64,000 bases of DNA from an uncultured Chitinophagaceae bacterium (GTDB lineage: Bacteria; Bacteroidota; Ignavibacteria; UBA10030; UBA8401), in NCBI GenBank assembly GCA_964409765.1, contig CAYPEM010000019.1, forward strand, positions 1,429 to 65,428. Reading direction: 5' to 3'. Positions within the stretch are counted from its first letter, which is position 1. Each line of letters starts with the position of its first letter. Position numbers and translations under genes: made by a program. The notes beneath the pieces are model-generated. The model was not told where the DNA came from, made no database searches, and saw only the letters and a list, made by a program, of their open reading frames with translations. Of the stretch, positions 32,194-52,397 are shown in pieces.

Positions 32194-32616
32194 CTAAACC
32201 TTTGTCCATGTCATCGAACTATGATGCTGCGGATTATGGCTCATAAAATAGCAATGGCTTGCATCATGACCTGTCAAATCCCAATCATCATCACATTCCC
32301 ATAAAACCGAATGGTCATCGCAACCCATGATATGGAAATGACACATTGAATGATTACTATCGTTGTAACTCCAACTGCAGTCATAAGAGTTTGTATGACC
32401 GGCAATGGTCATCACTCCATTCGAATTGCAGGTAAAAGTATAACCGGCAAACTGACTGGCCAGTTCAACGCTGTCCTTTATGAAGGAGCTAACTCGCCAA
32501 GTCCCGACAAGTGGTTCCGTTGTGGGAGATGTTGTAGGGCTGGAGCTGTCTTTTTTACAAGCATTGCCGAGAACTGTGATAATTAATACAATTCCGAATA
32601 CTAAATATCTTTTCAT
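32194..32616 (-). CDS. Cys/His-rich lipoprotein (lipocalin-like size); paralog of CDS 57787..58200
   Basis: Lipobox LGNAC. Shared motifs with the paralog: GTWRVSSFIKD.VE.A.QFAGYTF.CN.NG.M...CHFHIMGCD...ECDDDWD...CYF. Confidence 0.55.
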   Translation of the reverse strand: MKRYLVFGIVLIITVLGNACKKDSSSPTTSPTTEPLVGTWRVSSFIKDSVELASQFAGYTFTCNSNGVMTIAGHTNSYDCSWSYNDSNHSMCHFHIMGCDDHSVLWECDDDWDLTGHDASHCYFMSHNPQHHSSMTWTKV

Positions 32617-32617
32617 T

Positions 32618-33991
32618 TTACTTTATTATTTGAAGCTTTTCAGAATATTTTCTGTCTGCTGAAATAAGAGTAACGAAATATATCCCATTACTTAAATTAC
32701 CTACAGGAATATCTTCCTGATAAACACCAACAGAAATTGCACCTTCATTTTGTTCAAAGAGAACCCTACCAGTAATATCCGTAATAATCAAATTTATTTT
32801 TGATGAGAGCTCGTTCGTCCAACTTATCTTAACAAAATCACTTGCCGGATTAGGATAAACATTCATGGAAATTACATTACCATTAACTGGTTGAATACCG
32901 GTATTTGCAGAATACTTTGCAATATTGTTTACAGAAGTTCCAGCAGCATTGGTGAAAGCACCTGCGATGTAAAGTTCATTGTGATAAACGGCCAGTGAAT
33001 TGACCACACCATTCATTCCAATTCCAATACTGGACCAGGAAGAACCATCCCACATCCCTAAATTATTTGATGAAGTCGAGCCGCAGGAACCAAAATTTCC
33101 ACCAATAAAAAGGTGCCCGTTATAAGCACACATGGCACTAACTACATTATCACCCATTCCAGAACCATCGATATCTCCAATGGAGGACCAACTTGAACCA
33201 TTCCACATCGCCAGGTTGTGCATGTCCATTGTTCCGGCATGCTCAAACATCCCACCTGCATATAGATTGCCATCATAAACGCAAAATGAGTGTACCATGC
33301 ATTGGCCACCCATTCCTGTAGTGAAGCCTGTACCAACTGCAGAAAAAGTAGTGCCATCCCATTTACAAATACGATTCATTGCAATTCCACCAGCCATTGT
33401 AAAGTCCCCACCAATATATAAAGCATTATTCCAAACACACATCGCTTCAACATCGTCATTCGTTCCTCCATTAACCTGGTTCCACTGTGCTCCATTCCAT
33501 TTTCCGAGATAATTGACAGTCGTAGTTCCTGATGAAGTGAATTCTCCTCCCGCATAAAGTTCGTTGTTATATACAGCCAGAGCATGTACTTCATGATTAA
33601 ATCCATCACCAACCGGATACCAGGATGTTCCGTCCCATCTTGCAATGTGATTACAAGCTACTCCACCGGCTTGAGTAAAATTTCCTCCAACGTATGCATC
33701 TCCATTAAACATGACAAAACACCAAACTGAATCATTACAACCATTTTGACCCATCATGTTCATTGGATGATACGTTGTGTCATTCCAATAACAACAATAG
33801 TTCATCGTATCAGTACCTGAATTATGAAATCCACCACCAATAAATAAACAATTGCGCAGTGAGTCGTTATACATACAATGTATACCTCCGTTAGTTCCAT
33901 TTCCGGCAGGATTACATTGTGCTTTGGTGCTTGTATTGATAACAGCTACAGAAAGTAGAACTAAGAGTTGAAGTAGAAGTATTTTTTTCAT
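32618..33991 (-). CDS. Kelch-like beta-propeller protein with T9SS C-terminal sorting domain
   Basis: Signal peptide MKKILLLQLLVLLSVAV. Six repeats of the YxGGxF....G......KW.G..W type. C-terminal VYPNPASDFVKISW...GIYFVTL...KLQIIK. Confidence 0.65.
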   Translation of the reverse strand: MKKILLLQLLVLLSVAVINTSTKAQCNPAGNGTNGGIHCMYNDSLRNCLFIGGGFHNSGTDTMNYCCYWNDTTYHPMNMMGQNGCNDSVWCFVMFNGDAYVGGNFTQAGGVACNHIARWDGTSWYPVGDGFNHEVHALAVYNNELYAGGEFTSSGTTTVNYLGKWNGAQWNQVNGGTNDDVEAMCVWNNALYIGGDFTMAGGIAMNRICKWDGTTFSAVGTGFTTGMGGQCMVHSFCVYDGNLYAGGMFEHAGTMDMHNLAMWNGSSWSSIGDIDGSGMGDNVVSAMCAYNGHLFIGGNFGSCGSTSSNNLGMWDGSSWSSIGIGMNGVVNSLAVYHNELYIAGAFTNAAGTSVNNIAKYSANTGIQPVNGNVISMNVYPNPASDFVKISWTNELSSKINLIITDITGRVLFEQNEGAISVGVYQEDIPVGNLSNGIYFVTLISADRKYSEKLQIIK

Positions 33992-34167
33992 CTTATTATC
34001 TTTATACTGTTTAAAAATTAACATGTAAAGTTTCAGAATGAAAAACTAAAATGCTATGATAATAGTCATCGGGAAATATGTCTTTTATCAAGCAATTTAA
34101 TACCCAAAACAATCCAAATAAGATAAAAAAGAGGATTGTGATAACTTGAAGATAAAAATGAAAATAC

Positions 34168-36051
34168 TTAGTTGAATTTCATCAACCTCAAACTCACCAA
34201 AATCACAATCAACGTCACACCCACATCAGCAGCAATCGCCAGGACCAGGTTACTATATCCGAAAAGCGCCAAGGCAATAAATAATATCTTAATCAGTATC
34301 GCTCCGGCTGTATTAAATCTTATAGTCGTTAGTGTCCGCCTGCTTAGACGAATCAGAAATGGTATCAGCGAAAGCTTATCATTCATCAATGCAATGTTGG
34401 CCGTCTCGATGGCTGTATCACTTCCTGCTGCTCCCATCGCAATCCCGACTGACGATTGTGCAAGTGCCGGAGCATCGTTAATTCCGTCTCCTACCATCGC
34501 CACGGAGCCGTATTCTTGCAGAAGCTGATTTATCTTTTCCACTTTGTCTTCCGGAAGCAGTCCGCCATACGCTTTCGATATGCCGACCTGGTTGCTTAGA
34601 TATTGAGCTGCCTTACCGCTGTCCCCAGACAGCATTACAGGCTCTACGCCTAATTCTTTTATCGCCTGGATGGATTCCTTACTATCCGGCTTTACTTCGT
34701 CTGTAAGCCCGATAATGCCTGCTACGCCATCGCCAAAACTGACGACTACACTTGTTTTACCCTGGTTAGTCAAATCCTCAACTGTTTTCTCTGCCTTGTC
34801 ATCAATCGGCTGGTGCTCTTTGATAAAACTTAATTTGCCGATGAAGATTGTCTCATCTTCACATACCAGGCATTCAGCAATCGCACCTTTGCCGGGAATA
34901 CTCTTGAACTTATGGACCGCATGAGCTTTGTATCCGGCTTCGTTTGATGCATCCACAATCGCTTCTGCAAGTGGATGCTCAGAAAACAGCTCCGCTCCCG
35001 CTGCACAGGCTAAAAGTTCTTCCTTTGACGAGACGTTCATCGGTATCAAATCAGATACTTTAGGCTTACCAAACGTGATGGTCCTTGTTTTGTCTAATGC
35101 AATTGCTTTTATCCTTGCCATGATTTCCAAATACTTTCCGCCTTTTACCAAAATTCCTTTAGAAGAAGCATTGCCAATTGCAGCGTATATTGCCACCGGA
35201 GTTGATATCACTAACGCACACGGACAGGCAATCACAAGCAAAGTAACTGCCTGCTCCAACCACTTATTAAAATCCTGATGATAGATAAATACCGGTATTA
35301 CAAATATGCCAGTCGCAATCACAATTATTGTAGGTGTGTAAATCTTTGAGAATCGCTGAATGAATTGCTGAGATTTAGATTTTGTCGCCTGTGCCTGAAA
35401 GGTGAGTTTAACAATTTTGGAAAAAGTTGTATCAACTGAAAGGCTTGTTGTCTTAATCTCAATCAGACCGTTTCTGTTTAACGTCCCCGCAAAAACCTTA
35501 TCTCCTTCATGCTTGTCCTTTGGAATTGGCTCACCCGTTATAGCCGCCTCATCAATTGTTGTATTACCACTTGTAATTACACCATCAATAGGAATGAATT
35601 CTCCTGGCTTAATGAGTAAGATGGTACCGACTTCTATTGAATCGATTGGCATTTCCTTCAGTCCGTTCTTTATTATTGCAGTTTTAGGTGTCTTTGATAC
35701 TAATTCACTCAATGCTGATTGTGAACTTTCAATGCCAATATCTTCCAGTCGCTCTCCTAATACATATAAGGCAATAACTACTGCCGCTTCCGGATATTCC
35801 TTGAGATAAAAAGCTGCAACAACAGCAATAAGCATGAGCAAACTAATGCTGCTGAATTTTAATTTCAGCAACGCTCTTAACCCATTCCATAATACTTTAT
35901 ATCCTACTGATAAAATCAAAATCCCGAATACAACCGGTGCATATGGCATGGGTATATGCAAACCTGTTAAGGACAATACTTCAAGAGCGATTACTCCCGA
36001 TACAGTCGCTAACAGGAAAATGAATTTTTTGTCTTTAAGTGGAAGTATCAT
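34168..36051 (-). CDS. P1B-type heavy-metal translocating ATPase (CPC type, probably Zn/Cd/Pb or Cu+). It lacks a fused N-terminal HMA domain, and its phosphorylation motif reads DKTRT instead of DKTGT.
   Basis: ACPCALVISTP (CPC), SEHPLAEAIV (HP), MVGDGINDAPAL hinge. Codon 323 is AGG (Arg); this was checked on the DNA at 35083-35085. Confidence 0.8.
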   Translation of the reverse strand: MILPLKDKKFIFLLATVSGVIALEVLSLTGLHIPMPYAPVVFGILILSVGYKVLWNGLRALLKLKFSSISLLMLIAVVAAFYLKEYPEAAVVIALYVLGERLEDIGIESSQSALSELVSKTPKTAIIKNGLKEMPIDSIEVGTILLIKPGEFIPIDGVITSGNTTIDEAAITGEPIPKDKHEGDKVFAGTLNRNGLIEIKTTSLSVDTTFSKIVKLTFQAQATKSKSQQFIQRFSKIYTPTIIVIATGIFVIPVFIYHQDFNKWLEQAVTLLVIACPCALVISTPVAIYAAIGNASSKGILVKGGKYLEIMARIKAIALDKTRTITFGKPKVSDLIPMNVSSKEELLACAAGAELFSEHPLAEAIVDASNEAGYKAHAVHKFKSIPGKGAIAECLVCEDETIFIGKLSFIKEHQPIDDKAEKTVEDLTNQGKTSVVVSFGDGVAGIIGLTDEVKPDSKESIQAIKELGVEPVMLSGDSGKAAQYLSNQVGISKAYGGLLPEDKVEKINQLLQEYGSVAMVGDGINDAPALAQSSVGIAMGAAGSDTAIETANIALMNDKLSLIPFLIRLSRRTLTTIRFNTAGAILIKILFIALALFGYSNLVLAIAADVGVTLIVILVSLRLMKFN

Positions 36052-36407
36052 TTCTTTTTACAGCATTCATCAAGATTTGTATATGCTTCCGGGTCCGCCT
36101 TCACATCATCGGCATCATAACCATATTTTGAAATTTTCATTTTGATTTCTTCAGGCGTTGTTTTCTTCGGGTTATATGTTACAGTTATCGTCATGGCCTT
36201 ATCATCAAGCTTGACTAATTTAATTCCCCTTTCAAAGCCCAGGTCTTTCTCAATTTTACCTCCACAACTGCCGCATACTTGACAATGGTCACAGTAGATG
36301 TTGGTTTTAATTTTGATGGTCTCTGAATTATTCGCTTTTGCAGAATAAAAAAATGTTGCGAATGCAATAATGAATATTGCTTTTGATTTTTTTAGATAGC
36401 TATCCAT
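36048..36407 (-). CDS. Exported heavy-metal-associated (HMA-fold) metal-binding protein. Its stop overlaps the ATPase start by 4 bp.
   Basis: Signal peptide. Then ETIKIKTNIYCDHCQVCGSCGG...GI..V, which has the HMA ferredoxin-like layout with a CDHC metal motif in place of CxxC. Confidence 0.6.
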   Translation of the reverse strand: MDSYLKKSKAIFIIAFATFFYSAKANNSETIKIKTNIYCDHCQVCGSCGGKIEKDLGFERGIKLVKLDDKAMTITVTYNPKKTTPEEIKMKISKYGYDADDVKADPEAYTNLDECCKKK

Positions 36408-36435
36408 GATTTAAGTTTTAAGATTTAGAATTCGA

Positions 36436-37890
36436 TTAATGCATAATACCTATTCCATACGGGTCAACACTCACTTCAACTTTGAAATCGTTTATCACAC
36501 TTAAAGTTGCCAGATTAATTGCAGACACACTTCCATTTCGGCCACCACATACACTTGCATGATGTGGTGCCGGTCCGCCCTGAATGTTTCTATTTGTAAT
36601 GAAGGCAATGTCGGAGACGTTATCAATGGCAATACCATGTGGTTGCCAACCTGTATAAAACGAAGATATAACTTGCAAGGTATTCGTGTCGATAATTTTG
36701 ATTGAGCCTCGTTTATTGGGGTCGCTAAAAGTAGACACATCTTCCATACAACTGACAAGTAAGTAGGGATGAACACCTGATAAAGCCATTTCAACTGGTG
36801 ATTCTCCAACTGAAATAATTGCTAAAAGAGAATCATTCGAAGATTGAAAGACTCTTACTTCATTTGATTTTTGACATGTCACATAATACTTTGACTCATC
36901 CGTAGATAATAAAATTTCATGCGGGTCAAGAGAAGAGCTTGTAGAGGGCATTTGTCCAGGCTGTAAGACAACTTGATTTACATCTGGTAAAAAAATATTC
37001 GAAATGTCAATTTTGTAAATGAAATTACCATATTGTGCCGTAACATATAATACAGTCATATTTTGATTTAAATAACTACCATGTGGCCATGATAACGCTC
37101 CATAGGTTGTAATCAAAGTCATAGTTTCAAGATTAACAACTGCAATTCTTCCCGATGTGCTCCAATCAACTATAAATGCAAATTTCGAGTCTGCTGAAAT
37201 AGCAAATGTATTCCATGAACCACCTGTAATATTAACATCCCCGACAAAACCATTATCAGAGGTGCGATACTTTTGTATTACATTTCCAGCATAAAATATC
37301 GTATACCAATATTGATTATCATAGGAAACTTTGACCTGATGCGGCACTTCATGACCTGGACCGGTTCCTACATCGATATATCGAATGGGAATTTTTAATT
37401 CGCTATCGAAAACCGTCACAACATCACATCCTTGATTTGAAACATAAAACTTTTTACGGTTAGGATACTCAGAAAGAAATGCGGTTCCATCAATGCATGG
37501 CGCTCCATTCTGTATCCATGTTTTCAAAGTGTTATACTCAGAAGTTGAAAGAGGAGGTGCATTATACGGCATTCTGGGACTTAAAACTAAACCTTGAGTA
37601 GAATCCGTATTAGTGTAATACAATATTAAACTATAATCCGGTCTATAGGGTATTACACTTGCACCACCTCTTCCACCTTCAAATAACTTATCCCAGGTCG
37701 ATAAATCCAATCCTGCGGCACCACTTTTACTTGCTGTATTATGACAGCCAGCAGTTGAACATTTATTTAGTATAATGTCTTCAACTTCTTTTGGATAACC
37801 ACTTACAAAAGTCTCCTCATCATGTTTGTCCTTCTTACATCCAAACAAAATAAGTAACAGAAATAAGAATTTGAGAATTGAGGGCTTCAT
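36436..37890 (-). CDS. Lipoprotein with an N-terminal Cys-x4-Cys-His domain (homologous to the small lipoproteins at 4811-5579) followed by a YVTN-type beta-propeller
   Basis: Lipobox LILFGC. KCSTAGCHNT...LKTWIQNGAPC. The C-terminal two-thirds carries YVTN/LVIVD-like repeats. Confidence 0.55.
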   Translation of the reverse strand: MKPSILKFLFLLLILFGCKKDKHDEETFVSGYPKEVEDIILNKCSTAGCHNTASKSGAAGLDLSTWDKLFEGGRGGASVIPYRPDYSLILYYTNTDSTQGLVLSPRMPYNAPPLSTSEYNTLKTWIQNGAPCIDGTAFLSEYPNRKKFYVSNQGCDVVTVFDSELKIPIRYIDVGTGPGHEVPHQVKVSYDNQYWYTIFYAGNVIQKYRTSDNGFVGDVNITGGSWNTFAISADSKFAFIVDWSTSGRIAVVNLETMTLITTYGALSWPHGSYLNQNMTVLYVTAQYGNFIYKIDISNIFLPDVNQVVLQPGQMPSTSSSLDPHEILLSTDESKYYVTCQKSNEVRVFQSSNDSLLAIISVGESPVEMALSGVHPYLLVSCMEDVSTFSDPNKRGSIKIIDTNTLQVISSFYTGWQPHGIAIDNVSDIAFITNRNIQGGPAPHHASVCGGRNGSVSAINLATLSVINDFKVEVSVDPYGIGIMH

Positions 37891-37911
37891 TAGCTTAGTT
37901 TTTGTAAAGGA

Positions 37912-38379
37912 TTATTCAGTAACCGGAATATTTAGGTTAACTTCTCCTGATGTCTGAGTTAGAATATAAGGTATCCCACCGGTAACAGTATCTGAAATAG
38001 ATGTATCAAAGGCGACTTCATAGATGTAGTATTTACCCGGCTTTAAGTTTTCGATTTCAATATGATTCTCAGTTGTGTCTGCGTCAACGACAAGGTCATA
38101 AAGCCAAGGGTCCGTTCCAGGTGAATCTTGCGCATTAAATTTTACATAAACATGATATGGCCGAGTATCAGCCCCATGATGTTTCGGGTAGGCAACTATT
38201 GTTGTACTGCCTCCCGTTCCGGCATATAAGCAACTGCCATCGTTTTCCTCAGCTTCTGAATTGTAGCTAATGGAATTAGGGTCCGTGCATCCTTTAACCT
38301 TATCTTTTTTACACGAAGTAAAAATAACAGTGCCTGCAATTATTGCAAGCGTCAAAACCATTGAGGATTTGTTTTTCAT
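37912..38379 (-). CDS. Small lipoprotein, hypothetical
   Basis: Lipobox FTSC. No recognisable catalytic motif. Confidence 0.45.
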   Translation of the reverse strand: MKNKSSMVLTLAIIAGTVIFTSCKKDKVKGCTDPNSISYNSEAEENDGSCLYAGTGGSTTIVAYPKHHGADTRPYHVYVKFNAQDSPGTDPWLYDLVVDADTTENHIEIENLKPGKYYIYEVAFDTSISDTVTGGIPYILTQTSGEVNLNIPVTE

Positions 38380-38420: not shown

Positions 38421-39743
38421 TTAATGTTCGTGTTCTCCTTCATTCGTCAGCATAGCCATAAGATAGAAAGAGCCGTTAACTACAACTTTTGCATCATGTG
38501 GTAATTCTTCGAGAGGAACTATTTCCGTAAATCCGGAGTCAGATACTCCTTTCTTAATCTGTATTCTATTAAATGAAAATTTGTTTTCTGGATGTCCATT
38601 TGAATCATTATGTTGCTCAGATTCTGAATGGTTATGTTCCTTGTGTTCGTCAGGTTTTTCGCCTTCCTGATGTTGATGATTTTTCTCTTCATCAGAATGT
38701 TCATGATTTTCATTCTCAGATTGAATAAAAATGTAATCATTTCCACCAAAACTTGCAATAGCAGATGAAGAAACAGAAAGTACACTATTGTTGCCAACGT
38801 TGATATTTGCAATTACGCTCATGCCTTCAATCAATCCCGATTTTTCACTCGTTAGCGAAGCATGTACAGGAATTGACTTGCTTTCTCCTTGAAATGCAGA
38901 ACCAATCGAAAATATCTTCGCATCGTAATGCTTCCCTGGCAAATTAGTCAGAAGAACATCAACGGTTTGTCCAATTTTTACTTTTGGTAAATCCTGTTCA
39001 AATACAAATAAATCAAGATGGAGTTGAGAATTGTCCACAACATCCATTAAATCCTTTGACGGCTCAACAGTGCTTCCTATATTAATTTCAATATTTGCGA
39101 TGTTTCCGGAAATGGGCGATTTAATATTAATAAATGAAGAAATATTTTCAGCTGTGAGCGCTGCAGTATTAATATTCAACAAAGTCAATTGTTGTTTCAA
39201 TGCATTCAGGGTCGCTTTAAGCGTTTGATAATTTGATGTTACCTGCTGAAATGACTTTTGAGAAGCAACATTTTTTTCTGATAATTCCTTCTGACGATTA
39301 TAATCTGCTTCGGCAAAAATGATTTGACTTTGAGCCTCCAAATATTCACGCTGCATTCTTATAAATTCCTGATTTGCAATCGTAGCAACCGTTTGACCTT
39401 TCTGTACATGCTCGCCTTCCATTACTAAAATGCTATTAACCGTACCACCGATAATTGCAGTAATGTTTGCCTTGTTGGTAGGTGGCACTTTTAAAAAACC
39501 TGTCGCTTTAAGAGCAGTTGATAGATTTTTCATCTCAACATCTCCAAGTTGAATGTTCAGTTGTTTAAATTGGGCAGCATCAATTTCAACAGATGATGTT
39601 TCTTCGTGATGTTCATGTTCCTCTTCACCTTTAGGAATATCATTGTTTTTTTTGTCGCTGCACGAAACAGCAAAGACTGTGACAATAAAAAGGACAATAG
39701 TTTGTAATCGCCCTGACATATATTTTGAATTTCTCATTTCCAT
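38421..39743 (-). CDS. czcB: RND efflux membrane-fusion protein (CzcB/HlyD family) with His-rich metal-binding segments
   Basis: Lipobox AVSC. His/Glu-rich stretches EEHEHHEETS and NENHEHSDEEKNHQHQEGEKPDEHKEHNHSESEQHNDSNGHPE, plus C-terminal NEGEHEH. Biotinyl-lipoyl/beta-barrel MFP layout. Confidence 0.75.
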   Translation of the reverse strand: MEMRNSKYMSGRLQTIVLFIVTVFAVSCSDKKNNDIPKGEEEHEHHEETSSVEIDAAQFKQLNIQLGDVEMKNLSTALKATGFLKVPPTNKANITAIIGGTVNSILVMEGEHVQKGQTVATIANQEFIRMQREYLEAQSQIIFAEADYNRQKELSEKNVASQKSFQQVTSNYQTLKATLNALKQQLTLLNINTAALTAENISSFINIKSPISGNIANIEINIGSTVEPSKDLMDVVDNSQLHLDLFVFEQDLPKVKIGQTVDVLLTNLPGKHYDAKIFSIGSAFQGESKSIPVHASLTSEKSGLIEGMSVIANINVGNNSVLSVSSSAIASFGGNDYIFIQSENENHEHSDEEKNHQHQEGEKPDEHKEHNHSESEQHNDSNGHPENKFSFNRIQIKKGVSDSGFTEIVPLEELPHDAKVVVNGSFYLMAMLTNEGEHEH

Positions 39744-39751
39744 TTTTTTGT

Positions 39752-42700
39752 TTAATTATTGTAGTAAAAACTAATTTGAATAACAGACTGGTTAAAATTG
39801 TTGAGAGCATTCAAGTAATTATTCTTTATATCAATGCTCTGAGTAATAAGTGCAGTAAATTCAATATGACTGATTTCACCATTGCGATACGCAATCGTTG
39901 CTGCATTTAAAATTTCATCTGCCTGCTGCATTCCGATTGTTTCGTAATAGTTAACTAATGAACTGTTTTTTTGATATTCCTGATAGGCTCTTTTGTAACC
40001 CGTACTAAATTGCAATGAGTCGCTTATGTAATTCTTTTCAGAAATTTGCTGTTGTAGTTTTGCTGCCTGAATTTTTCCTTGCTGGCTCCAGAAGAACAAA
40101 GGTATTCCGATGCCTATTGAATAGCCATAATAGCCAGGTGTCTCATTATACCAATTTTGATTAAAATACCTTACCGAAATATCTGGCAACAATTTTCCTG
40201 ACTCTAATTTTTTTTGATAATGGGATAACGAAATTCTCTGCTGGCTTAATTGCAAAAATGGATGGTTAACATTGCCAGTTGGTTCAGGGTTTATTACTGC
40301 CGGAAGCTTTATCATTTTCTCAGCTATAGGCAAAATGGTATCTCCAGTATTTAGCAATTTCCTCATCTCCTGTTGAGCCATCACTACATTACTATTTGCG
40401 TTTTGCAAAGCAAGTTGTATTTCTTTATGCTTTGCTTGAGCTGAAATCTGTTCGAGTTTACCTGTTTCTCCTGAACTAAATCGTAACGTGGCTGCAGCCT
40501 CAAAATCGGTATAAATACTATCCTGCTGCTTTAACAAATTTTGTTGCTCGATTGCAAGCCACAGATAAAAATAGGCACTACGAACTTGTTGGACCAATTG
40601 TCGTTGTACAAGGGTAAGAGATGTTTCAGCAAAGCGGGTGTTCTGTTTGTTGAACTTCTTTTGAGTAATAAATCGTGTTGGAAACTCGATGGATTGAGAA
40701 AGACCAATTTTAAGAATTCCATCCTCAGCAGCGTTGTCCTTTATTAAATCCTCGTTCTCATAAAATATTTCTGTTCTGTTTAAATCTATAGCTGTTTTTT
40801 GGAGTTTCTTATTTCGTGTAACTTCTAATTGTGATGCCTGGAATGATGGATTATATTTTAATGCAGTGTCAACGCATGCCTCGATGCTTAAATGTTTTTC
40901 CTGAGCATGCATAATATTGCTTGGGAATAGAGCAACTGCGGCAACAATTGTAGCAGTAAGTTTACTATTAGATTTTCGCTTCTTGTTAGATGTAAATAAA
41001 AGATAAAGTGCAGGAAGTACAATTAGAGTTAAGGCAGTTGCTGAAACGAGTCCGCCAATAACAACTGTTGCTAACGGTTTCTGCACCTCAGCACCTGCTG
41101 AAGTTGATATCGCCATAGGCAGAAAACCAAAGGAAGCAACTGCAGCCGTCATTAGAACAGGACGAAGACGTATCCTGGTTCCTTTTCGTACACGTTCTAA
41201 AATATCAGTTACACCATCCTTTTCTAATTCATTGAAAGTAGAAATCAAAACTATTCCATTCAAAACTGCAACTCCAAATAAGGCAATAAATCCTACTCCT
41301 GCAGATATACTGAATGGCATATCTCGTAACCATAAAGCTAACACCCCTCCAATGGCACTCATCGGAATTGCAGTATATATCAGCAAGGCTTCACGAGTGG
41401 AACCAAATGTGAAAAACAACAAAACAAAAATGAGTAACAAAGCTACGGGAACAGCAATCATTAAACGAGCAGATGCTTCTTCAAGATTTTTAAAAGTTCC
41501 TCCATATGTAATATAATAGCCTGGAGGTAATTTTAAACTGCTAAGTTTATTTTGCAAATCGGAAACAACTGATTTAACATCACGACCACGCACATTAAAC
41601 CCGATAACTATTCTTCGCTTCGCCTCTTCACGACTTATTTGCGATGGACCAATAACATACTCAATCGTGGCAACCTGTTGCAACGGAATTTGACCTCCAT
41701 TAGGTAATGGAACATATAAATTTCTAACATCGTCAATCTCTGTTCTATTTTGATTTGCCAGCCGGACAACCATTTCAAATCTTCTCTCGTTCTCATACAC
41801 GGAACCTGTTGCTTCCCCGGCAAAAGCTGTCCGGACGATTCGATTGAGTTCACTAATCTGCAAACCATATTGAGCAACACGACTACGGTCATATTCAATT
41901 GTAATTTGAGGAAGTCCGGTTGTGCGTTCAGCTTGAGGTTCTGTTGCACCTTCCACTGACTGAATGATGTTAGAGACTTGCTGAGCGTAAAATGCAAGAG
42001 AGTCAATATTCTCTCCGAATATTTTTACTGCTACATCCTGCCTGACACCGGTCATCAATTCGTTAAAGCGCATTTGAATCGGCTGTGTTGCTTCGAAGAA
42101 AACTCCCGGTATTACAGAAAGAGCTTTCATCATTGTATCCTGTAAATCCTCTCGATTGTGTGCAGTGGTCCAATCATCTTTCTCTTTGAGAATTATCATC
42201 AGGTCAGTAGCATTGGGTGGCATCGGGTCAGTAGGGATTTCTGCGGCTCCGGATTTGCTGATAATCTCCTTTACTTCAGGGAAGCGTTTAATAATTTTCT
42301 CTACCTCATTGTTGTTGTCAATACTTTGGGAAAGTGATGCTCCTTCGGGTAATATGGAATGGAAAGCGAAATCGCCTTCCTCAAGAGTTGGAATAAATTC
42401 ACCACCCATACGTGTAAACATAAGTGCTGCACCTGCAAACAAACCTGTTGCAATTATTACAACTAAAATTCTTTTACGTATTGCATATTCTATAATAGGA
42501 GTATACATTCGTTGAAAGAAATTCATCATTCTATCACTGAAATTCTTTGTATGTGACGTTTTCCTGGGAAGAAATAAAGCGCTCATCATAGGAACATATG
42601 TTAATGATAATATTAATGCACCAACGATAGCGAATGAAACCACCTTGGCCATAGGTCCAAACATTTTTCCTTCAATACCAACTAACGTCAGTATTGGAAT

Positions 42701-44125
42701 GTATACGATAAGGATTATAATTTGTCCGAAAGTGGCGAAGTTCATCATACGTGAAGCGGAATGATATACTTCTTTATCCATTTGCTGATTTGTAAGAGAT
42801 GGCTTTTCTGAAAACTTCTGAGAATGGAGATTCGGATGGTCAGCTAATTCTGTCTTAAGGTTTGATACCCGGTGCAGGATTGCTTCAACAATTATTACTG
42901 CCCCATCCACAATCAAACCGAAATCAATGGCTCCCAAACTCATAAGGTTGCCTGTAATACCAAAAACATTCATCATGATAATTGCAAAAAGCATGGAAAG
43001 GGGAATGACCGATGCAACTATTAACCCTGCTCTAAAATTTCCAAGAAAAAGAACAAGTATAAAAATTACGATGAGTGCACCTTCCAATAAATTTTTCTCT
43101 ACTGTACCTACTGCACGTTTAACAAGATTAGTTCTGTCGAGGAATGGTTCTATGGTTATACCTTTCGGCAGAGCCTTTTGAATGTTAGGTAATTTCTCTT
43201 TTACTTTTTCTACCACTTCAGCACTATTTGCCCCTTTGAGCATCATAACTATTCCTCCCACTACTTCACCTTCACCATTACGTGTCATCGCTCCATAACG
43301 GATAGCATGACCGAATTGGGGCGTAGCAACATCTCTGATTAAAATGGGCGTTCCATTCGCATTCATTTTAACTACGATTTTTCCAATGTCTTCAAGCGAC
43401 CGAACCAAACCAACTCCTCGAATAAAATATGCATTAGGTTTCTTTTCGATATATGCTCCGCCTGTATTTTCATTATTGTTTTTTAAGGCATCAAATATTT
43501 CCGGAATAGAAACATTCATGCTTTTCAATCGGACAGGGTCAACTGCAACTTCATATTGCTTTAGTTTACCACCAAAGCTGTTGACTTCAGCAACTCCTGG
43601 CGTACCAATTAACTGCCGTGCAACAATCCAGTCCTGAAATGTCCTTAAATCAGCCGCAGAGTATTTGTCTTTATAAGCAGAATCGGCACTAATGACATAT
43701 TGGAAAATTTCTCCCAAACCTGTACTTACTGGAGCCATCTCCGGCTTACCAACTCCCGCTGGAATTTTCTCTTCCGCATCTTTTAATCGTTGGTCCACTA
43801 ACTGCCGAGCAAAATATATGTCAACTTTATCTTTGAATACTACAGTAACTACACTTAAGCCAAACCTTGAAATGCTTCTCATCTCTTCCAAGTCAGGAAG
43901 AGATGCAATTGATTGTTCAATGGGGGCCGTAACAAACTGTTCTACTTCTTGGGTAGCCAGGGTGGAAGAAACAGTAATAATCTGTACCTGATTATTAGTA
44001 ATGTCAGGTACAGCATCAATTGGTAGCTGTTGGAGAGAATAAGTACCATATATTATTAGCACGAGGGTAAACAAACCAATCGTGAATTTATTATGTATGG
44101 AAAACTGAATGATTCTATTTATCAT
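39752..44125 (-). CDS. czcA: Heavy-metal efflux RND permease (CzcA/CusA family, about 1040 aa) fused in-frame to a C-terminal TolC-like outer-membrane-factor domain (CzcC-like, about 400 aa)
   Basis: N-terminal MINRIIQFSIHNKFTIGLFTLVLIIYG...LPIDAVPDITNNQVQI (HME-RND). After residue ~1040 there is a hydrophobic segment KLTATIVAAVALFPSNIMHAQ, followed by OMF-like coiled/beta repeats through the C-terminus. It is a single uninterrupted 1457-aa ORF. Confidence 0.7.
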   Translation of the reverse strand: MINRIIQFSIHNKFTIGLFTLVLIIYGTYSLQQLPIDAVPDITNNQVQIITVSSTLATQEVEQFVTAPIEQSIASLPDLEEMRSISRFGLSVVTVVFKDKVDIYFARQLVDQRLKDAEEKIPAGVGKPEMAPVSTGLGEIFQYVISADSAYKDKYSAADLRTFQDWIVARQLIGTPGVAEVNSFGGKLKQYEVAVDPVRLKSMNVSIPEIFDALKNNNENTGGAYIEKKPNAYFIRGVGLVRSLEDIGKIVVKMNANGTPILIRDVATPQFGHAIRYGAMTRNGEGEVVGGIVMMLKGANSAEVVEKVKEKLPNIQKALPKGITIEPFLDRTNLVKRAVGTVEKNLLEGALIVIFILVLFLGNFRAGLIVASVIPLSMLFAIIMMNVFGITGNLMSLGAIDFGLIVDGAVIIVEAILHRVSNLKTELADHPNLHSQKFSEKPSLTNQQMDKEVYHSASRMMNFATFGQIIILIVYIPILTLVGIEGKMFGPMAKVVSFAIVGALILSLTYVPMMSALFLPRKTSHTKNFSDRMMNFFQRMYTPIIEYAIRKRILVVIIATGLFAGAALMFTRMGGEFIPTLEEGDFAFHSILPEGASLSQSIDNNNEVEKIIKRFPEVKEIISKSGAAEIPTDPMPPNATDLMIILKEKDDWTTAHNREDLQDTMMKALSVIPGVFFEATQPIQMRFNELMTGVRQDVAVKIFGENIDSLAFYAQQVSNIIQSVEGATEPQAERTTGLPQITIEYDRSRVAQYGLQISELNRIVRTAFAGEATGSVYENERRFEMVVRLANQNRTEIDDVRNLYVPLPNGGQIPLQQVATIEYVIGPSQISREEAKRRIVIGFNVRGRDVKSVVSDLQNKLSSLKLPPGYYITYGGTFKNLEEASARLMIAVPVALLLIFVLLFFTFGSTREALLIYTAIPMSAIGGVLALWLRDMPFSISAGVGFIALFGVAVLNGIVLISTFNELEKDGVTDILERVRKGTRIRLRPVLMTAAVASFGFLPMAISTSAGAEVQKPLATVVIGGLVSATALTLIVLPALYLLFTSNKKRKSNSKLTATIVAAVALFPSNIMHAQEKHLSIEACVDTALKYNPSFQASQLEVTRNKKLQKTAIDLNRTEIFYENEDLIKDNAAEDGILKIGLSQSIEFPTRFITQKKFNKQNTRFAETSLTLVQRQLVQQVRSAYFYLWLAIEQQNLLKQQDSIYTDFEAAATLRFSSGETGKLEQISAQAKHKEIQLALQNANSNVVMAQQEMRKLLNTGDTILPIAEKMIKLPAVINPEPTGNVNHPFLQLSQQRISLSHYQKKLESGKLLPDISVRYFNQNWYNETPGYYGYSIGIGIPLFFWSQQGKIQAAKLQQQISEKNYISDSLQFSTGYKRAYQEYQKNSSLVNYYETIGMQQADEILNAATIAYRNGEISHIEFTALITQSIDIKNNYLNALNNFNQSVIQISFYYNN

Positions 44126-44228: not shown

Positions 44229-44540
44229 TTAAGAAATTCGTGGCGGCTGCCAGAAATCATACGGACCGGAATTCGGAACGTGTGGTTGATAAAAAGTAAA
44301 ACTAACACCAGCGTAAAATTGAGGACATGAATAAGATGTTGTTCCAATGATAACAACAAATCCCTGGCAACATGAACAGATACAAAATGGTGTACAGCAA
44401 TCAGACAATGGTTCGGCATCATCACTACAAGCAGATGAAATGCTTGTCGATGACACAACTGCTTCTGCATGAGCATCATTACAAGGCATGACGCTTATGA
44501 GGCATACATAAAAAGCTAATATAAAGGTGAAAAATCGCAT
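44229..44540 (-). CDS. Small secreted Cys-rich protein at the head of the czc operon (possible periplasmic metal-binding protein)
   Basis: Signal peptide MRFFTFILAFYVCLISVMPCNDAHA. Cys cluster CSDDAEPLSDCCTPFCICSCCQG. Confidence 0.4.
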   Translation of the reverse strand: MRFFTFILAFYVCLISVMPCNDAHAEAVVSSTSISSACSDDAEPLSDCCTPFCICSCCQGFVVIIGTTSYSCPQFYAGVSFTFYQPHVPNSGPYDFWQPPRIS

Positions 44541-46666: not shown

Positions 46667-47242
46667 ATGGCAAAAAAAAATCAACGCACCGTATGTACAG
46701 GCATGGAATGGTCGGACTTTTTATTTGTGGTCGAGACATTAAAAAGAAAGCAGGAGTATAAGTTTATGCTCCTTATTGCAGCCGGAGTTTTTCTTGGGCT
46801 TCGTGCAAGTGATATCCTTCAACTGCAATGGGATTCCCTTCTTAATGAGGAAACATTCTCATTGAAGGAAAAGAAAACTGGTAAGAGCCGTTTGGTTACT
46901 GTAAATCCGGCACTGAAAGAGGTGGCACAAATTGCTGCAGAGAATATACGTCTGCCGGGTATACCATTTATTGCCACCAACAGAAAAGGCAAACCTATCT
47001 CTATACAATACTTCAATCGAAAACTTCATTTCATTTTCAGTGAATGTAATGTTGCGGCAGGTAACGGCAGCACCCATACACTTCGCAAAACTTTCGGTAA
47101 GCGCATATTTTTATTAAATAACAAGTCTGAGAATAGCTTGATACTATTGAGCAAGGTCTTTAATCATAGCAGTACTGCTATGACACGTGAGTACCTCGGA
47201 TATACTCAATCGGACATTAATCAAATTTTCTTAAGTCTTTGA
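46667..47242 (+). CDS. Tyrosine recombinase/integrase, catalytic domain only (191 aa; no N-terminal core-binding domain)
   Basis: Catalytic residues in order: GLRASD (R), KTGK (K), HTLRKTF (HxxR), NHSS (H), REYLGYT (Y). Confidence 0.65.
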   Translation: MAKKNQRTVCTGMEWSDFLFVVETLKRKQEYKFMLLIAAGVFLGLRASDILQLQWDSLLNEETFSLKEKKTGKSRLVTVNPALKEVAQIAAENIRLPGIPFIATNRKGKPISIQYFNRKLHFIFSECNVAAGNGSTHTLRKTFGKRIFLLNNKSENSLILLSKVFNHSSTAMTREYLGYTQSDINQIFLSL

Positions 47243-49365: not shown

Positions 49366-50886
49366 ATGGCCATGAACAAAGAAGCAATCGCATCTCTAAA
49401 TAAAGAAGAAACGGCACCTAATCAAATAATGCCAATTAGGGACACGATATTTATTGGACACGCTAACCCGGAAGACAATGAATTTACTCTTTGGCTTCGG
49501 TCGAAATTAATTAACGAAGGTTATAAGGTTGAATGCGATTTGACATTTCTCCTTGGAGGAGAGAATGATTACTGGAAATCTCTTCAAGAATTATTAGAGA
49601 GCGGAACAATCAAATATTTACTTGTTTACAGTAAAAACACTTTTCTAAAACAAGGAGTTATTGATGAATGGGAGCAAGCAAAAGCAGTTGGCTCAGACAC
49701 CGGAATTCAAGACTTCAGAATAGTGTGCAAAATTGATGATGTTAGTTTTTCATCACGCATTGGACTTAACGTGATGAACCAAATAAGGTTTGACCGTTCC
49801 TGGAGCATAGGCTTAAAGCAAGTTCTAAGGAAGCTACGAAGAGACCAGGTGCCACGAGGCGCTAAGAATAATTATTCCGTTGATGATTGGTTCAAAAATC
49901 GATATACAACTGAGTATAATTTGAAAAAAAAGAACGAATCATATTATTCCAACTGGTTTGAGTTACCAGAGTTGCCAGAGACATTATTTATTCATGAGTA
50001 CGATACGCCCGCCCAAGCAAAATTAATAGCTAATGAGATATCGAGTTATCCTGCATTTGCACATGATAAATACTTAGTCACTTTTTTAGAAAATGTCCCT
50101 ACTTCCGGCAAAGAAAAAATCGATGAGCTAAATGGAGCTACAAAATTAATTGATATCGACATTGTGGCAAGAAACAAGCAATGTATACCTACACGATTAT
50201 ATAAAGATAATCATGATAGCTATCCATTCCCAGGAAATGTTGATTTAAAAAAGTTCATGGTTCGACTTTTAAGGGACGCATTCTTTAAATTTCTTAATTT
50301 GAAAAATGTTCCATTTCATGAGATGTCCAACAAGCTTCGCTGCTTTTACTATAGAGAAGGACAAATTGAAAATAATAAAGTTTCATACCTCTATCGAGGA
50401 AATTGGAGTAGACCAAAACAAATTTTGGGAGATTACTTTGAGCATACATGGCATTATGGTATAAGTGTTAAACCCATATTGCGTCCGGTGTTACGTTTTG
50501 CAATTAAGGGTCACCTATTATTTTCAGATGATGGAGAGAATATTTGGGAAAAGAAAAATGAACTTGCTTCCGCCAGGCGTAGCAAAGGCAAAGGATTTTA
50601 TAATGCAGATTGGAGAAACCTAATGTTAGCGTTCATGCATAGTATTGCTGATGATGAAGGCAACATATCAATGGCCCTCTCCGATATTTTTACCGTTACA
50701 ATAAGTGCAAGCCCTATAATTTTTCATTCAACATATGGATATGTTGAACCAACTTCAAATGCACGACTGGTTCCAGTGGATTCAGAGTTTGAGTCATTTA
50801 TGGAAGAGGAAGAAATGTATGATGCAGAAGAAATAGAAGATGCAGAAGAAAATAATGAAACTAACGAAAATGATATTGAATTATGA
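49366..50886 (+). CDS. TIR-APAZ protein (SPARTA-type partner of a short pAgo). It has an N-terminal TIR domain, an APAZ region and an unusually long acidic C-terminal tail.
   Basis: N-terminal IFIGHANPEDNEFTLWLRSKL...KYLLVYSKNTFLKQGVIDEWEQA is TIR-like, with a candidate catalytic Glu in DEWE. 506 aa. Ends with EEEEMYDAEEIEDAEENNETNENDIEL. The stop overlaps the start of the downstream pAgo gene by 4 bp. Confidence 0.7.
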   Translation: MAMNKEAIASLNKEETAPNQIMPIRDTIFIGHANPEDNEFTLWLRSKLINEGYKVECDLTFLLGGENDYWKSLQELLESGTIKYLLVYSKNTFLKQGVIDEWEQAKAVGSDTGIQDFRIVCKIDDVSFSSRIGLNVMNQIRFDRSWSIGLKQVLRKLRRDQVPRGAKNNYSVDDWFKNRYTTEYNLKKKNESYYSNWFELPELPETLFIHEYDTPAQAKLIANEISSYPAFAHDKYLVTFLENVPTSGKEKIDELNGATKLIDIDIVARNKQCIPTRLYKDNHDSYPFPGNVDLKKFMVRLLRDAFFKFLNLKNVPFHEMSNKLRCFYYREGQIENNKVSYLYRGNWSRPKQILGDYFEHTWHYGISVKPILRPVLRFAIKGHLLFSDDGENIWEKKNELASARRSKGKGFYNADWRNLMLAFMHSIADDEGNISMALSDIFTVTISASPIIFHSTYGYVEPTSNARLVPVDSEFESFMEEEEMYDAEEIEDAEENNETNENDIEL

Positions 50887-52397
50887 AAATGCAACATAAA
50901 ATATACTATTTAAAGGAGCCAGAATTAAAATTTGCATATAATCAAAGCGTAGTTGACCCAAGGGATGGCTTAACGCTTTTTGGTCCTTATGATAAAGGGA
51001 AAGTATCCGACCTATCGGTAGGAATCATTGGCACCGCAGATGGAATTGTTAAGTGTAAAAATTGGTTAACTAAAATTCAAAGACCTGTTTTTCATCCCAC
51101 TCATGATATTGCCAAGCCTTTCTTTCCTGGATTTGATTCTGCATTTTTCGTTTCGATGAACATGGAATCAATACCAACTTTGCAAATTGATGACTCGACA
51201 CTGGATAGTCTATATAAGTATTCAGATAGTCATATACGAGTGGCCGAAATTGTTGATTTGTATATTAACAAACTACATGAGTACCTAAAGGAAAACGAAA
51301 AACAACCTCGATTATGGTTCGTAATAATTCCGAATAAGGTTTATACATTATGCCGTCCCAAAAGTATCGTTCCCAAAAAAGGTTCTATTAAAGTTGGCTT
51401 CTCTGATGACTACTCTCGTAAAGTAGTAAGCATGTTTGAAAATGAAGAAGCTGGTAGATGGAGGAAAGCATACGACTATGAAAATCATTTTCATAATCAG
51501 CTTAAAATTAAATTACTAAATCAACGCATTCTAACGCAAATCATCAGAGAGGACACAATAGCCTTTGAGGATAAACCCAACGTTACTCCGAAAAAATTAA
51601 AAACCTATCAAAATCAAGTCACGGCAATAACCTGGAATCTTGCAAATTCAATTTATTATAAAGCGGGCGGCATACCGTGGAAGTTGGCCAATGTTCGTAA
51701 AAACGTTTGCTATATTGGTCTTACTTTCAAACGAGACGAAACGCATCATGATACGAGAATTGCATGTTGCGCTGCACAAATGTTTCTTGATACCGGTGAT
51801 GGGGTTGTCTTTCGAGGTCGAGTTGGACCTTATTATAATCCAACAACAAAAGAATATCATCTGACAGAAGAAAAAGCATATGAGCTATTATCAAAAGTGC
51901 TAACATCATTTAAAAAAGACAATGAATCTGAAATTCCAGAGAAAATTTTCATCCACGGAAAAACTTTTTTTAATGATGAAGAGTGGGCTGGCTTTGAAAG
52001 AGCTGCCAATGGTAAATGCCATGTTTATGGGGTTCGCATAACACATGAGAAAGATTTTAAATTATTCCGGGAAGGAGAGTATCCAATATATAGAGGAGCT
52101 TTTTATAAAAGACATAATAAGGCAGCATTTCTATGGACGAAAGGCTTTATGCCAAGGATTCAATCTGTACTTGGCCTTGAAACCCCGAATCCTTTACATG
52201 TTGAAATAATTCGAGGAGATGAAGACATTCAGACTGTTTGCAAGGATATAATGATGCTGACAAAGCTTAATTATAATGCATGCATTTATTGTGATGGAAC
52301 TCCCGTAACACTAAAATTTGCGGACTTAATTGGAGAGATTCTCACTGCAGGTCCGAATGAAGATTTAGAAATTCTTCCGTTCATGTATTACATCTAA
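50883..52397 (+). CDS. Short prokaryotic Argonaute (MID-PIWI only), predicted catalytically inactive
   Basis: 504 aa. Translationally coupled to the TIR-APAZ gene. PIWI-like region ..ITWNLANSIYYKAGGIPWKL..VCYIGLTFKRDETHHD.. lacks the GxDV(S/T)H and RDG catalytic aspartates. This call is from the architecture and was not verified by a search. Confidence 0.65.
   Translation: MKMQHKIYYLKEPELKFAYNQSVVDPRDGLTLFGPYDKGKVSDLSVGIIGTADGIVKCKNWLTKIQRPVFHPTHDIAKPFFPGFDSAFFVSMNMESIPTLQIDDSTLDSLYKYSDSHIRVAEIVDLYINKLHEYLKENEKQPRLWFVIIPNKVYTLCRPKSIVPKKGSIKVGFSDDYSRKVVSMFENEEAGRWRKAYDYENHFHNQLKIKLLNQRILTQIIREDTIAFEDKPNVTPKKLKTYQNQVTAITWNLANSIYYKAGGIPWKLANVRKNVCYIGLTFKRDETHHDTRIACCAAQMFLDTGDGVVFRGRVGPYYNPTTKEYHLTEEKAYELLSKVLTSFKKDNESEIPEKIFIHGKTFFNDEEWAGFERAANGKCHVYGVRITHEKDFKLFREGEYPIYRGAFYKRHNKAAFLWTKGFMPRIQSVLGLETPNPLHVEIIRGDEDIQTVCKDIMMLTKLNYNACIYCDGTPVTLKFADLIGEILTAGPNEDLEILPFMYYI

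What the first reader, a model, noticed from the sequence alone, without database searches (positions are those of the whole stretch)
39752..44125. In-frame fusion of CzcA-type RND permease with a TolC-like outer-membrane factor (1457 aa)
A single uninterrupted ORF has a complete HME-RND permease (about 1040 aa). It is followed by a hydrophobic, signal-peptide-like segment (KLTATIVAAVALFPSNIMHAQ) and about 400 aa of OMF-like sequence. The topology works if that segment acts as a 13th TM helix and returns the chain to the periplasm. The result would be an inner-membrane pump covalently tethered to its outer-membrane channel. The upstream CzcB is His-rich and a small Cys-rich secreted protein leads the operon. 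No separate czcC gene is present.
Basis: seen in the sequence. Interest (0 to 1): 0.6.

Follow-up and report, generated by a model that had tools for sequence, protein, structure and literature searches.

The report
Metal pump and exit channel, one gene
One 1457-residue gene encodes both the inner-membrane metal-efflux pump and its outer-membrane exit channel; the joint looks like a normal cleavable export signal, so the cell most likely cuts the product into two ordinary proteins, and this layout is common in Bacteroidota.

Summary
Window 39752-44125 on the minus strand is one uninterrupted 1457-aa ORF. Residues 1-1047 are a complete CusA/CzcA-type RND permease. Residues 1075-1457 are a complete TolC-fold outer-membrane factor (OMF). 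No other OMF gene lies in the window.

The "covalent tether" reading is not supported. The 27-residue joint (1048-1074, KKRKSNSK-LTATIVAAVALF-PSNIMHA|Q) has the three regions of a Sec signal peptide. Its hydrophobic core is only about 12 residues. A small residue followed by Gln sits just before the OMF fold. That [A/S/G]-Q site is present in all 245 fused sequences examined, against 21% of control windows. It matches the Bacteroidetes "Q-rule" for signal peptidase I substrates. In split relatives the same segment is the N-terminal signal peptide of a separate OMF gene. The OMF fold starts about 4 residues after the site, far too close to the membrane for an uncleaved chain to reach the outer membrane.

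Most likely the product is a polyprotein cut by signal peptidase I into CzcA (keeping a short extra C-terminal helix) and a free OMF.

The architecture is widespread: 65 of 80 Bacteroidota/Ignavibacteriota genome loci, including RefSeq plasmids. It is annotated only as "CusA/CzcA", and I found no paper describing it. Cleavage is inferred, not shown.

The parts
44229..44540 (-). Leader gene: a 103-aa Cys-rich DUF6660 protein with an N-terminal hydrophobic helix. Function unknown.
   Evidence: Pfam DUF6660, E 1.3e-08, 35.7 bits against a cut-off of 27. A similar small ORF lies within 700 nt upstream in at least 30 of 59 complete fused loci. Shared motifs are P-C-x-D, CxPFCxCxCC and W/FQPPK/R.
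39752..44125 (-). Whole fused ORF czcA::omf, 1457 aa plus stop codon.
40985..44125 (-). HME-RND permease part, residues 1-1047. TM12 ends at ...LPALYLLF (residue 1044). The TM4 motif reads DFGLIVDGAVIIVEA.
   Evidence: TIGR00914 scores 1204 bits. Full-length alignment to ZneA and CusA. Hydropathy profile.
40904..40984 (-). Internal signal peptide, residues 1048-1074. It comprises an n-region KKRKSNSK, an h-core LTATIVAAVALF and a c-region PSNIMHA. The predicted signal peptidase I cut is between A1074 and Q1075.
   Evidence: It is positionally equivalent to the N-terminal signal peptide of split homologues. No ATG, GTG or TTG codon lies between residues 1041 and 1071.
39755..40903 (-). Predicted mature outer-membrane factor, residues 1075-1457 (383 aa). 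It has the TolC topology and is not a lipoprotein.
   Evidence: Pfam OEP x2. AlphaFold2 model with mean pLDDT 88.3, four beta strands and paired long and short helices. Foldseek matches TolC, SilC, CusC, CmeC and OprM over about 400 columns at E about 1e-16.
38421..39743 (-). Periplasmic adaptor (CzcB-like MFP), 440 aa, with His-rich ends and a likely lipobox (FAVSC). It starts 8 nt after the fused gene's stop codon.
   Evidence: TIGR01730 scores 139 bits against a cut-off of 94.9; Pfam HlyD_D23. An adaptor gene lies just downstream in essentially all related loci.
34168..38379 (-). Rest of the co-directional metal cluster. It holds a 155-aa and a 484-aa predicted lipoprotein (the latter with a CxxCH motif), an HMA-domain protein (36048-36407) and a P1B-type ATPase (34168-36051).
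   Evidence: Gaps between successive genes are 41 nt or less, or a 4-nt overlap.

Best explanation
The gene encodes a polyprotein of a heavy-metal (probably divalent-cation) tripartite efflux system. The proposed route has four steps. (1) The 12-TM CzcA-type permease is inserted into the inner membrane with its C-terminus in the cytoplasm. (2) The following segment (residues 1048-1074) then acts as an internal Sec signal: its positive n-region stays inside, its short h-core spans the membrane, and the 383-residue OMF part is exported to the periplasm. (3) Signal peptidase I cuts between A1074 and Q1075. This frees an ordinary TolC-type OMF, probably with an N-terminal pyroglutamate, which is inserted into the outer membrane as a trimer. 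CzcA keeps the signal peptide as a short extra C-terminal helix. (4) The pump then assembles conventionally from CzcA trimer, adaptor hexamer and OMF trimer. The fusion guarantees equimolar production of pump and channel (3:3), which may matter in a phylum with weak Shine-Dalgarno-based coupling. Shown here: domain identity and completeness, the signal-peptide features and their conservation, and the distribution of the fusion. Inferred: export, cleavage and the benefit of the fusion.
For: Both parts are complete. The joint has an n-region with 5 K/R, an h-core of about 12 residues and a c-region ending HA|Q. Across 245 fused sequences the median K/R count in the n-region is 4, and every one has [ASG]Q between the h-core and the OMF motif, against 21% of control windows. 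Position -1 is A in 183, S in 45 and G in 17; position -3 is mostly A, L, S, V or T. In alignment A1, +1 is Gln in 53 of 54 sequences, split homologues included. Gln at +1 of signal peptidase I sites is the published Bacteroidetes Q-rule (PMC5837995, PMC10653852). The window is of Bacteroidota origin, as shown by a T9SS sorting domain, and other exported proteins in it follow the rule (...STKA|QCNP...FAHG|QNEK). Split relatives have czcA ending ...FNRKMKTK* and overlapping, via ATGA, an OMF gene that starts MKIKTKIKTILGAMVVLLISLSNATQAQA|Q. Split forms are scattered among fused ones, for example 84% and 96% identical to fused neighbours. Easy interconversion of this kind is expected if both layouts yield the same mature proteins. 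The window has no start codon that could give the OMF its own signal peptide, so export must go through the fusion. On geometry, the model gives N-terminus, then a helix of about 29 residues, then the first barrel strand, with long helices of 69 residues. This places the OMF N-terminus roughly 60 A above the channel's periplasmic tip, while only about 10 residues link it to the h-core.
Against: No experiment or proteomic data show cleavage, and no SignalP-type predictor was available. Position -3 in the window is Met, which is uncommon for signal peptidase I (Met occurs at -3 in 6 of 245 family members). I know of few documented bacterial cases of signal peptidase cutting after a polytopic domain; the B. 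japonicum FbcH cytochrome b/c1 precursor is recalled from memory and was not verified here. About half of the fused loci (31 of 65) keep an in-frame ATG before the h-core, so in those species independent initiation could also supply the OMF.
Confidence: 0.8

Rival explanations
1. One reading: the segment is a stable 13th TM helix, and the OMF stays covalently attached to the pump as a permanent inner-to-outer-membrane tether.
For: The ORF is uninterrupted and the fusion is conserved. Cleavage has not been shown experimentally.
Against: The hydrophobic core is about 12 residues, and only 10 are helical in the model. The -1/+1 signal peptidase signature is conserved in 245 of 245 sequences. Only 3-15 residues (median 6) lie between the site and the OMF fold, and no family member has a long linker. 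From the model's helix lengths and known pump structures, the OMF N-terminus sits more than 100 A from the inner membrane. Frequent harmless fission into two genes also argues against a needed tether.
Confidence: 0.04
2. Assembly or sequencing artefact: a one-base error merged two overlapping genes (czcA and omf), as arranged in the split relatives.
For: The closest OMF-only relatives (53-60% identity) are separate genes overlapping by 4 nt, so a one-base indel could fuse them. Reads are not available.
Against: The window's joint has no start codon for an OMF signal peptide, and the other two frames are full of stops. The three closest fused relatives (P0001, L005, L006) have the same Met-less in-frame joint. 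Sixty-five of 80 genome loci and closed plasmids of type strains carry the fusion.
Confidence: 0.03
3. The OMF is made mainly by independent translation from an internal start, and the full-length fusion product is a minor or irrelevant species.
For: Thirty-one of 65 fused loci keep an in-frame ATG in the n-region. Bacteroidota initiate without Shine-Dalgarno sequences (own knowledge), so internal starts are hard to exclude.
Against: The window and 11 of 65 loci have no ATG, GTG or TTG there, and 34 of 65 have no ATG. The reading frame is nevertheless maintained across the family.
Confidence: 0.05
4. The OMF part is released by some other protease or at another site, or the fused protein is a decaying or non-functional copy.
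For: Cleavage chemistry is untested, and -3 Met is atypical.
Against: Both halves are full-length and conserved. The operon context with adaptor and leader gene is conserved. The [ASG]Q site is universal.
Confidence: 0.06

Closest known systems
CzcCBA / ZneCAB / CusCBA heavy-metal RND tripartite efflux systems (HME-RND family)
   Same: The same three components are present: an RND permease (best solved match ZneA, then CusA), a periplasmic adaptor (TIGR01730) and a TolC-fold OMF. The TM4 motif is of the DFG..DGA..VE type associated with divalent-cation HME pumps (sequence; motif assignment from my own knowledge of Nies 2003). The neighbourhood holds metal genes, namely an HMA protein and a P1B-ATPase.
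   Different: The permease and OMF are one ORF, with gene order A::C-B rather than C-B-A. The OMF is a signal peptidase I substrate (Q at +1), not a NodT-type lipoprotein like CusC or CzcC. The adaptor carries long His-rich inserts. A DUF6660 gene leads the cluster.
Database-annotated fused 'CusA/CzcA family heavy metal efflux RND transporter' proteins of about 1430-1480 aa in Bacteroidota (e.g. Runella slithyformis pRUNSL02 WP_013931245.1, 1446 aa)
   Same: They have the same architecture, the same joint and an adaptor gene just downstream. Identity across the joint region is 30-61%.
   Different: The window's protein is not identical to any record. Its closest fused relatives are MAG proteins at about 60% identity. 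The annotations do not mention the OMF part.
Split czcA-tolC gene pairs in the same clade (L001-L004; Hymenobacter sp. BRD128 plasmid)
   Same: The OMF is 53-60% identical. The order czcA-omf-adaptor is the same, and the signal peptide ends in the same A|Q.
   Different: A stop codon and a start codon, overlapping by 4 nt or 37 nt, separate the two genes.
Bacterial membrane polyproteins cut at an internal signal peptide, e.g. the Bradyrhizobium japonicum FbcH cytochrome b/c1 precursor (recalled from memory; not found in the searchable library)
   Same: A polytopic inner-membrane protein ending in the cytoplasm is followed by an internal signal sequence and an exported partner of the same complex.
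   Different: Here the exported partner is destined for the outer membrane, and cleavage is only predicted.

Membership tests
HME-RND permease (CusA/CzcA, TIGR00914) | Whole-protein score above the curated cut-off | tested here: met
   1204 bits against a cut-off of 701.
HME-RND permease (CusA/CzcA, TIGR00914) | Complete 12-TM, two-large-loop architecture | tested here: met
   Residues 1-1044 align to 1-1015 of ZneA and 8-1045 of CusA. Hydrophobic segments fall at the expected positions.
HME-RND permease (CusA/CzcA, TIGR00914) | Charged TM4 proton-relay motif (D..D..E) | tested here: met
   DFGLIVDGAVIIVEA is present. The final Asn of the classical VEN is Ala. Assignment of the motif to divalent-cation pumps rests on my own knowledge.
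HME-RND permease (CusA/CzcA, TIGR00914) | Metal transport and substrate identity | not testable with these tools
   Only context is available: an HMA protein and a P1B-ATPase nearby.
Outer membrane factor (TolC/OEP family, PF02321) | Two OEP repeats above the Pfam threshold | tested here: met
   98.2 bits against a cut-off of 22, in two stretches.
Outer membrane factor (TolC/OEP family, PF02321) | Full protomer fold: 4 beta strands plus paired long and short helices | tested here: met
   AlphaFold2 model with pLDDT 88.3. Foldseek gives TM-scores of about 0.7 over about 400 columns to TolC, SilC, CusC and OprM.
Outer membrane factor (TolC/OEP family, PF02321) | N-terminal lipobox Cys (NodT/CusC/OprM subgroup) | tested here: not met
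   Q, not C, follows the predicted cut, and the site is [ASG]Q in all 245 sequences. It is therefore TolC-like and not a lipoprotein.
Outer membrane factor (TolC/OEP family, PF02321) | Trimerisation and outer-membrane insertion | not testable with these tools
   -
Sec / signal peptidase I signal peptide (Bacteroidetes Q-rule type) | Positive n-region, short h-core and polar c-region | tested here: met
   KKRKSNSK / LTATIVAAVALF / PSNIMHA. Family medians are 4 K/R in the n-region and a 16-residue uncharged run covering the h- and c-regions.
Sec / signal peptidase I signal peptide (Bacteroidetes Q-rule type) | Small residue at -1 and small or aliphatic residue at -3 | tested here: inconclusive
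   Position -1 is Ala, which fits. Position -3 is Met in the window, which is atypical. In the family -3 is A, L, S, V, T, I or G in 211 of 245 sequences.
Sec / signal peptidase I signal peptide (Bacteroidetes Q-rule type) | Gln at +1 | tested here: met
   Q1075 in the window, 53 of 54 in alignment A1, and 245 of 245 have [ASG]Q. The rule is described in PMC5837995.
Sec / signal peptidase I signal peptide (Bacteroidetes Q-rule type) | Actual cleavage | not testable with these tools
   Needs N-terminal proteomics or a Western blot.
   The core is 12 residues. No 19-residue window over the segment reaches the 1.5 threshold that flagged the RND TM helices. The model helix is 10 residues long, with pLDDT about 60.
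   About 10 residues lie between the h-core and the first ordered OMF residue. In the family, 3-15 residues follow the cut site. The distance required is more than 100 A, inferred from helix lengths and known pump structures.

The most novel reading that the evidence does not exclude
A widespread but undescribed biogenesis route in Bacteroidota and Ignavibacteriota: an outer-membrane channel is synthesised as the C-terminal part of its inner-membrane pump. It is exported through an internal signal peptide and released by signal peptidase I at a Q-rule site. The pump is left with a retained 13th short helix. This would be a bacterial membrane polyprotein that fixes 1:1 pump:channel stoichiometry.
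Probability: 0.7. Interest if true: 0.55.

Novelty: new member of a known kind. Interest (0 to 1): 0.4.

Why it matters
There are three practical points.

1. Annotation. Hundreds of Bacteroidota proteins named only "CusA/CzcA" or "RND permease" hide a complete outer-membrane channel. OMF counts and operon models for this phylum are therefore wrong, and such systems look as if they lack an exit duct.

2. Mechanism. If cleavage is confirmed, this is a natural, abundant example of an outer-membrane beta-barrel protein delivered from a polytopic inner-membrane precursor. It would be a useful model for Sec and signal peptidase handling of internal signals and for stoichiometric co-production of envelope machines.

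3. Expectation. It corrects the tempting but physically implausible idea of a covalent link between inner and outer membrane.

The system itself (a Zn/Co/Cd-type efflux cluster in a mobile-element-like context) is otherwise ordinary.

Tried and rejected
- A single-sequence search of the OMF part against PDB sequences found only the RND tail. A profile search with alignment A1 was also dominated by RND chains. The OMF fold was therefore established by structure prediction and Foldseek.
- The first attempt to scan genomes with the 54-sequence alignment failed because no conserved stretch was available. A 6-sequence OMF-only alignment worked.
- An exact-sequence look-up of the window's protein found nothing, so the source organism is not identified beyond Bacteroidota, probably Chitinophagales-like.
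- Literature searches for a described RND-OMF fusion found none. The library lacks most subscription journals, so absence is weak evidence.
- Searches for the FbcH polyprotein precedent found no citable paper, so it is cited from memory only.
- An all-against-all BLAST timed out and was replaced by a query-restricted run.
- The lipoprotein reading (Cys1084 in ...SIEAC) was rejected: the Cys lies 17 residues past the h-core and has no lipobox.
- The artefact reading was rejected; see the rival explanations.


Full report
OBSERVATION. ORF listing and translation show one uninterrupted ATG-to-stop reading frame of 1457 codons at 39752-44125, on the minus strand.
- Pfam finds ACR_tran over residues 5-1044 (E 3e-286) and two OEP repeats running to residue 1454 (E 7e-28).
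- NCBIfam places the protein in TIGR00914 (CusA/CzcA) at 1204 bits against a cut-off of 701.
- Residues 1-1044 align end to end with ZneA (4k0e, E 1.6e-196) and CusA (E 1.9e-178).
- An AlphaFold2 model of residues 1001-1457, built from a 54-sequence alignment, has mean pLDDT 88.3. From residue 1075 onward it reproduces the TolC protomer topology: a short helix, two strands, a 69-residue helix and a 36-residue helix, then the same pattern again.
- Foldseek against the PDB returns TolC, SilC, CusC, CmeC, OprM and similar chains over about 400 columns at E about 1e-16.
- An HMM of the OMF clade hits no other ORF in the window.

The only correction is orientation. The transcription order is DUF6660 (44540-44229), then czcA::omf, then the adaptor (39743-38421), then two predicted lipoproteins, an HMA protein and a P1B-ATPase. 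The adaptor is downstream, not upstream.

THE JOINT. After TM12 (...LPALYLLF, residue 1044) the sequence reads TSN-KKRKSNSK-LTATIVAAVALF-PSNIMHA-QEKHLSIEACVDTALKYNP.
- There are five basic residues, then a 12-residue hydrophobic core (10 residues helical in the model, pLDDT about 60), then a Pro-containing polar stretch ending Ala-Gln.
- No 19-residue window over the segment reaches the hydropathy threshold that flagged the RND TM helices.
- This is the n/h/c anatomy of a Sec signal peptide, not of a stable TM helix.

COMPARATIVE EVIDENCE.
- A search with residues 1001-1457 returned thousands of hits. The nearest OMF-only hits (53-60% identity) are separate proteins of about 410 aa, while most others span the joint.
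- In the split relatives czcA ends ...FNRKMKTK*. It overlaps, through ATGA, an OMF gene that begins MKIKTKIKTILGAMVVLLISLSNATQAQA|QTN..., followed by the adaptor gene. The window's internal segment is thus positionally equivalent to a bona fide N-terminal signal peptide.
- Of 261 retrieved homologues, 244 contain both the RND C-terminus and the OMF.
- An exhaustive search of 1.84 billion cluster representatives gave 585 hits at E<=1e-30. Nearly all of the top 150 align across the joint, and about 25 are full length at 1432-1463 aa.
- In the 245 fused sequences (window included), the n-region holds a median of 4 K/R. Every one has [A/S/G]-Gln between the hydrophobic core and the conserved OMF start, against 21% of same-length control windows. 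Position -1 is A in 183, S in 45 and G in 17. Position -3 is mostly A, L, S, V or T. Only 3-15 residues (median 6) separate the site from the OMF motif.
- In alignment A1 the Gln column is 53 of 54 and the preceding Ala 46 of 54, with split proteins included.
- Gln at +1 of signal peptidase I sites is the Bacteroidetes Q-rule (PMC5837995; PMC10653852).
- The window is of Bacteroidota origin, because it encodes a T9SS C-terminal sorting domain. Other exported proteins in it obey the rule.

DISTRIBUTION.
- An OMF-only profile scan of one genome per species returned 80 loci. Sixty-five are fused, 6 are cut by contig ends (most still show the TM12 motif), and 9 are split.
- Fused loci include cultured Lutibacter, Pontibacter, Pedobacter, Hymenobacter, Algoriphagus, Cecembia, Marivirga, Sediminibacterium, Daejeonella and Penaeicola. 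They also include the ignavibacterium Stygiobacter electus.
- An adaptor gene lies just downstream in essentially all loci. A DUF6660-like Cys-rich ORF lies upstream in at least 30 of 59 complete fused loci.
- Forty-one plasmid records carry the fused form. On Runella slithyformis pRUNSL02 it is a single 1446-aa CDS named only "CusA/CzcA family heavy metal efflux RND transporter". Hymenobacter sp. BRD128 has the split form with a 37-nt overlap.
- Split forms are scattered, and their nearest relatives are often fused (84% and 96% identity in two cases). Fusion and fission have therefore happened repeatedly.

MECHANISM. The best-supported reading is a polyprotein.
- The permease inserts with its C-terminus in the cytoplasm. 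The internal signal then exports the OMF part. Signal peptidase I cuts between A1074 and Q1075.
- The OMF continues to the outer membrane as an ordinary TolC-type protein. CzcA keeps the signal peptide as a short C-terminal helix.
- Two further arguments support this. First, the window has no ATG, GTG or TTG between codons 1041 and 1071, and the other frames are closed. The OMF can therefore only reach the periplasm as part of the fusion. The same holds for 11 of 65 fused loci, and 34 of 65 lack an ATG.
- Second, geometry. In the model the OMF N-terminus is connected by a helix of about 29 residues to the first barrel strand, while the long helices have 69 residues. The N-terminus therefore sits about 40 A below the outer membrane and about 60 A above the channel tip. 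Adding the roughly 70 A periplasmic height of an RND pump (known structures, my own knowledge) gives well over 100 A, to be bridged by about 10 residues. An uncleaved tether is incompatible with a canonical pump.
- The benefit of fusion (fixed 1:1 synthesis for a 3:3 complex in a phylum that does not rely on Shine-Dalgarno coupling) is speculation.
- Substrate: the TM4 motif DFG..DGA..VE, the best match to ZneA, and the neighbouring HMA and P1B-ATPase genes suggest divalent cations (Zn/Cd/Co). This is an inference.

CAVEATS. Cleavage is predicted, not shown. Position -3 is Met in the window, which is rare. No dedicated signal-peptide predictor was available, and reads could not be inspected. 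The literature library is incomplete, so "no published description found" is weak evidence of novelty.

VERDICT. The feature is real, and the fusion is genuine and common. The window's gene is a new member (about 60% identity to its nearest relatives) of an architecture already abundant in databases but hidden under a "CzcA" label and apparently uncharacterised. Interest is moderate, at 0.4.

Noticed in passing
window 49366-52397 (+): A TIR-APAZ protein (PADLOC Aga_TIR-PNTD1-PNTD2, E 1e-111) is followed, with a 4-nt overlap, by a short pAgo (pAgo_I, E 5e-189). This is a SPARTA-type short-Argonaute defence system.
   Followed up: partly
window 44229-44540 (-) and loci L006-L080: The DUF6660 leader protein is conserved upstream of fused czcA::omf genes. 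It has an N-terminal hydrophobic helix ending P-C-x-D, an acidic/His patch, a CxPFCxCxCC cluster and a C-terminal W/FQPPK/R motif. Its function is unknown; it may be a metal sensor or chaperone.
   Followed up: partly
window 26792-28330 (-), 30006-31928 (-), 46667-47242 (+): A large serine recombinase, a BT4734-like (primase-type N-domain) protein and a short tyrosine-integrase-family ORF flank the metal cluster. This suggests that the cluster sits on an integrative or mobile element.
   Followed up: no
window 32194-34024 (-): A beta-propeller protein with a T9SS C-terminal sorting domain (Por_Secre_tail) marks Bacteroidota origin. It is followed by a 140-aa His/Cys/Trp-rich predicted lipoprotein with no family match.
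   Followed up: no
window 34168-36407 (-): The P1B-type ATPase has no N-terminal metal-binding domain. A separate exported HMA-domain protein overlaps its start codon by 4 nt. The ATPase carries a CPC motif and N(x7)K / DxG-like motifs, which I recall as typical of Zn/Cd/Pb pumps (motif reading from memory).
   Followed up: no
window 36436-38379 (-): Two predicted lipoproteins lie between the adaptor and the HMA gene. The 484-aa protein has a CxxCH motif and a weak Planctomycete cytochrome c hit (E 5e-4, below threshold). The 155-aa protein has only a weak sub-threshold hit. Their role in the metal cluster is unknown.
   Followed up: no
L085 (Runella slithyformis pRUNSL02) and other plasmid hits H1-H15: RefSeq names the fused 1446-aa CDS only 'CusA/CzcA family heavy metal efflux RND transporter', so the OMF half is invisible in annotation. 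Forty-one plasmid records carry the fused form.
   Followed up: partly
L019 (Hymenobacter rubidus), junction: This fused homologue has a long Pro/Ala/Gly-rich insertion of about 30 residues on the cytoplasmic side of the internal signal peptide. The length of the n-region is therefore not constrained.
   Followed up: no
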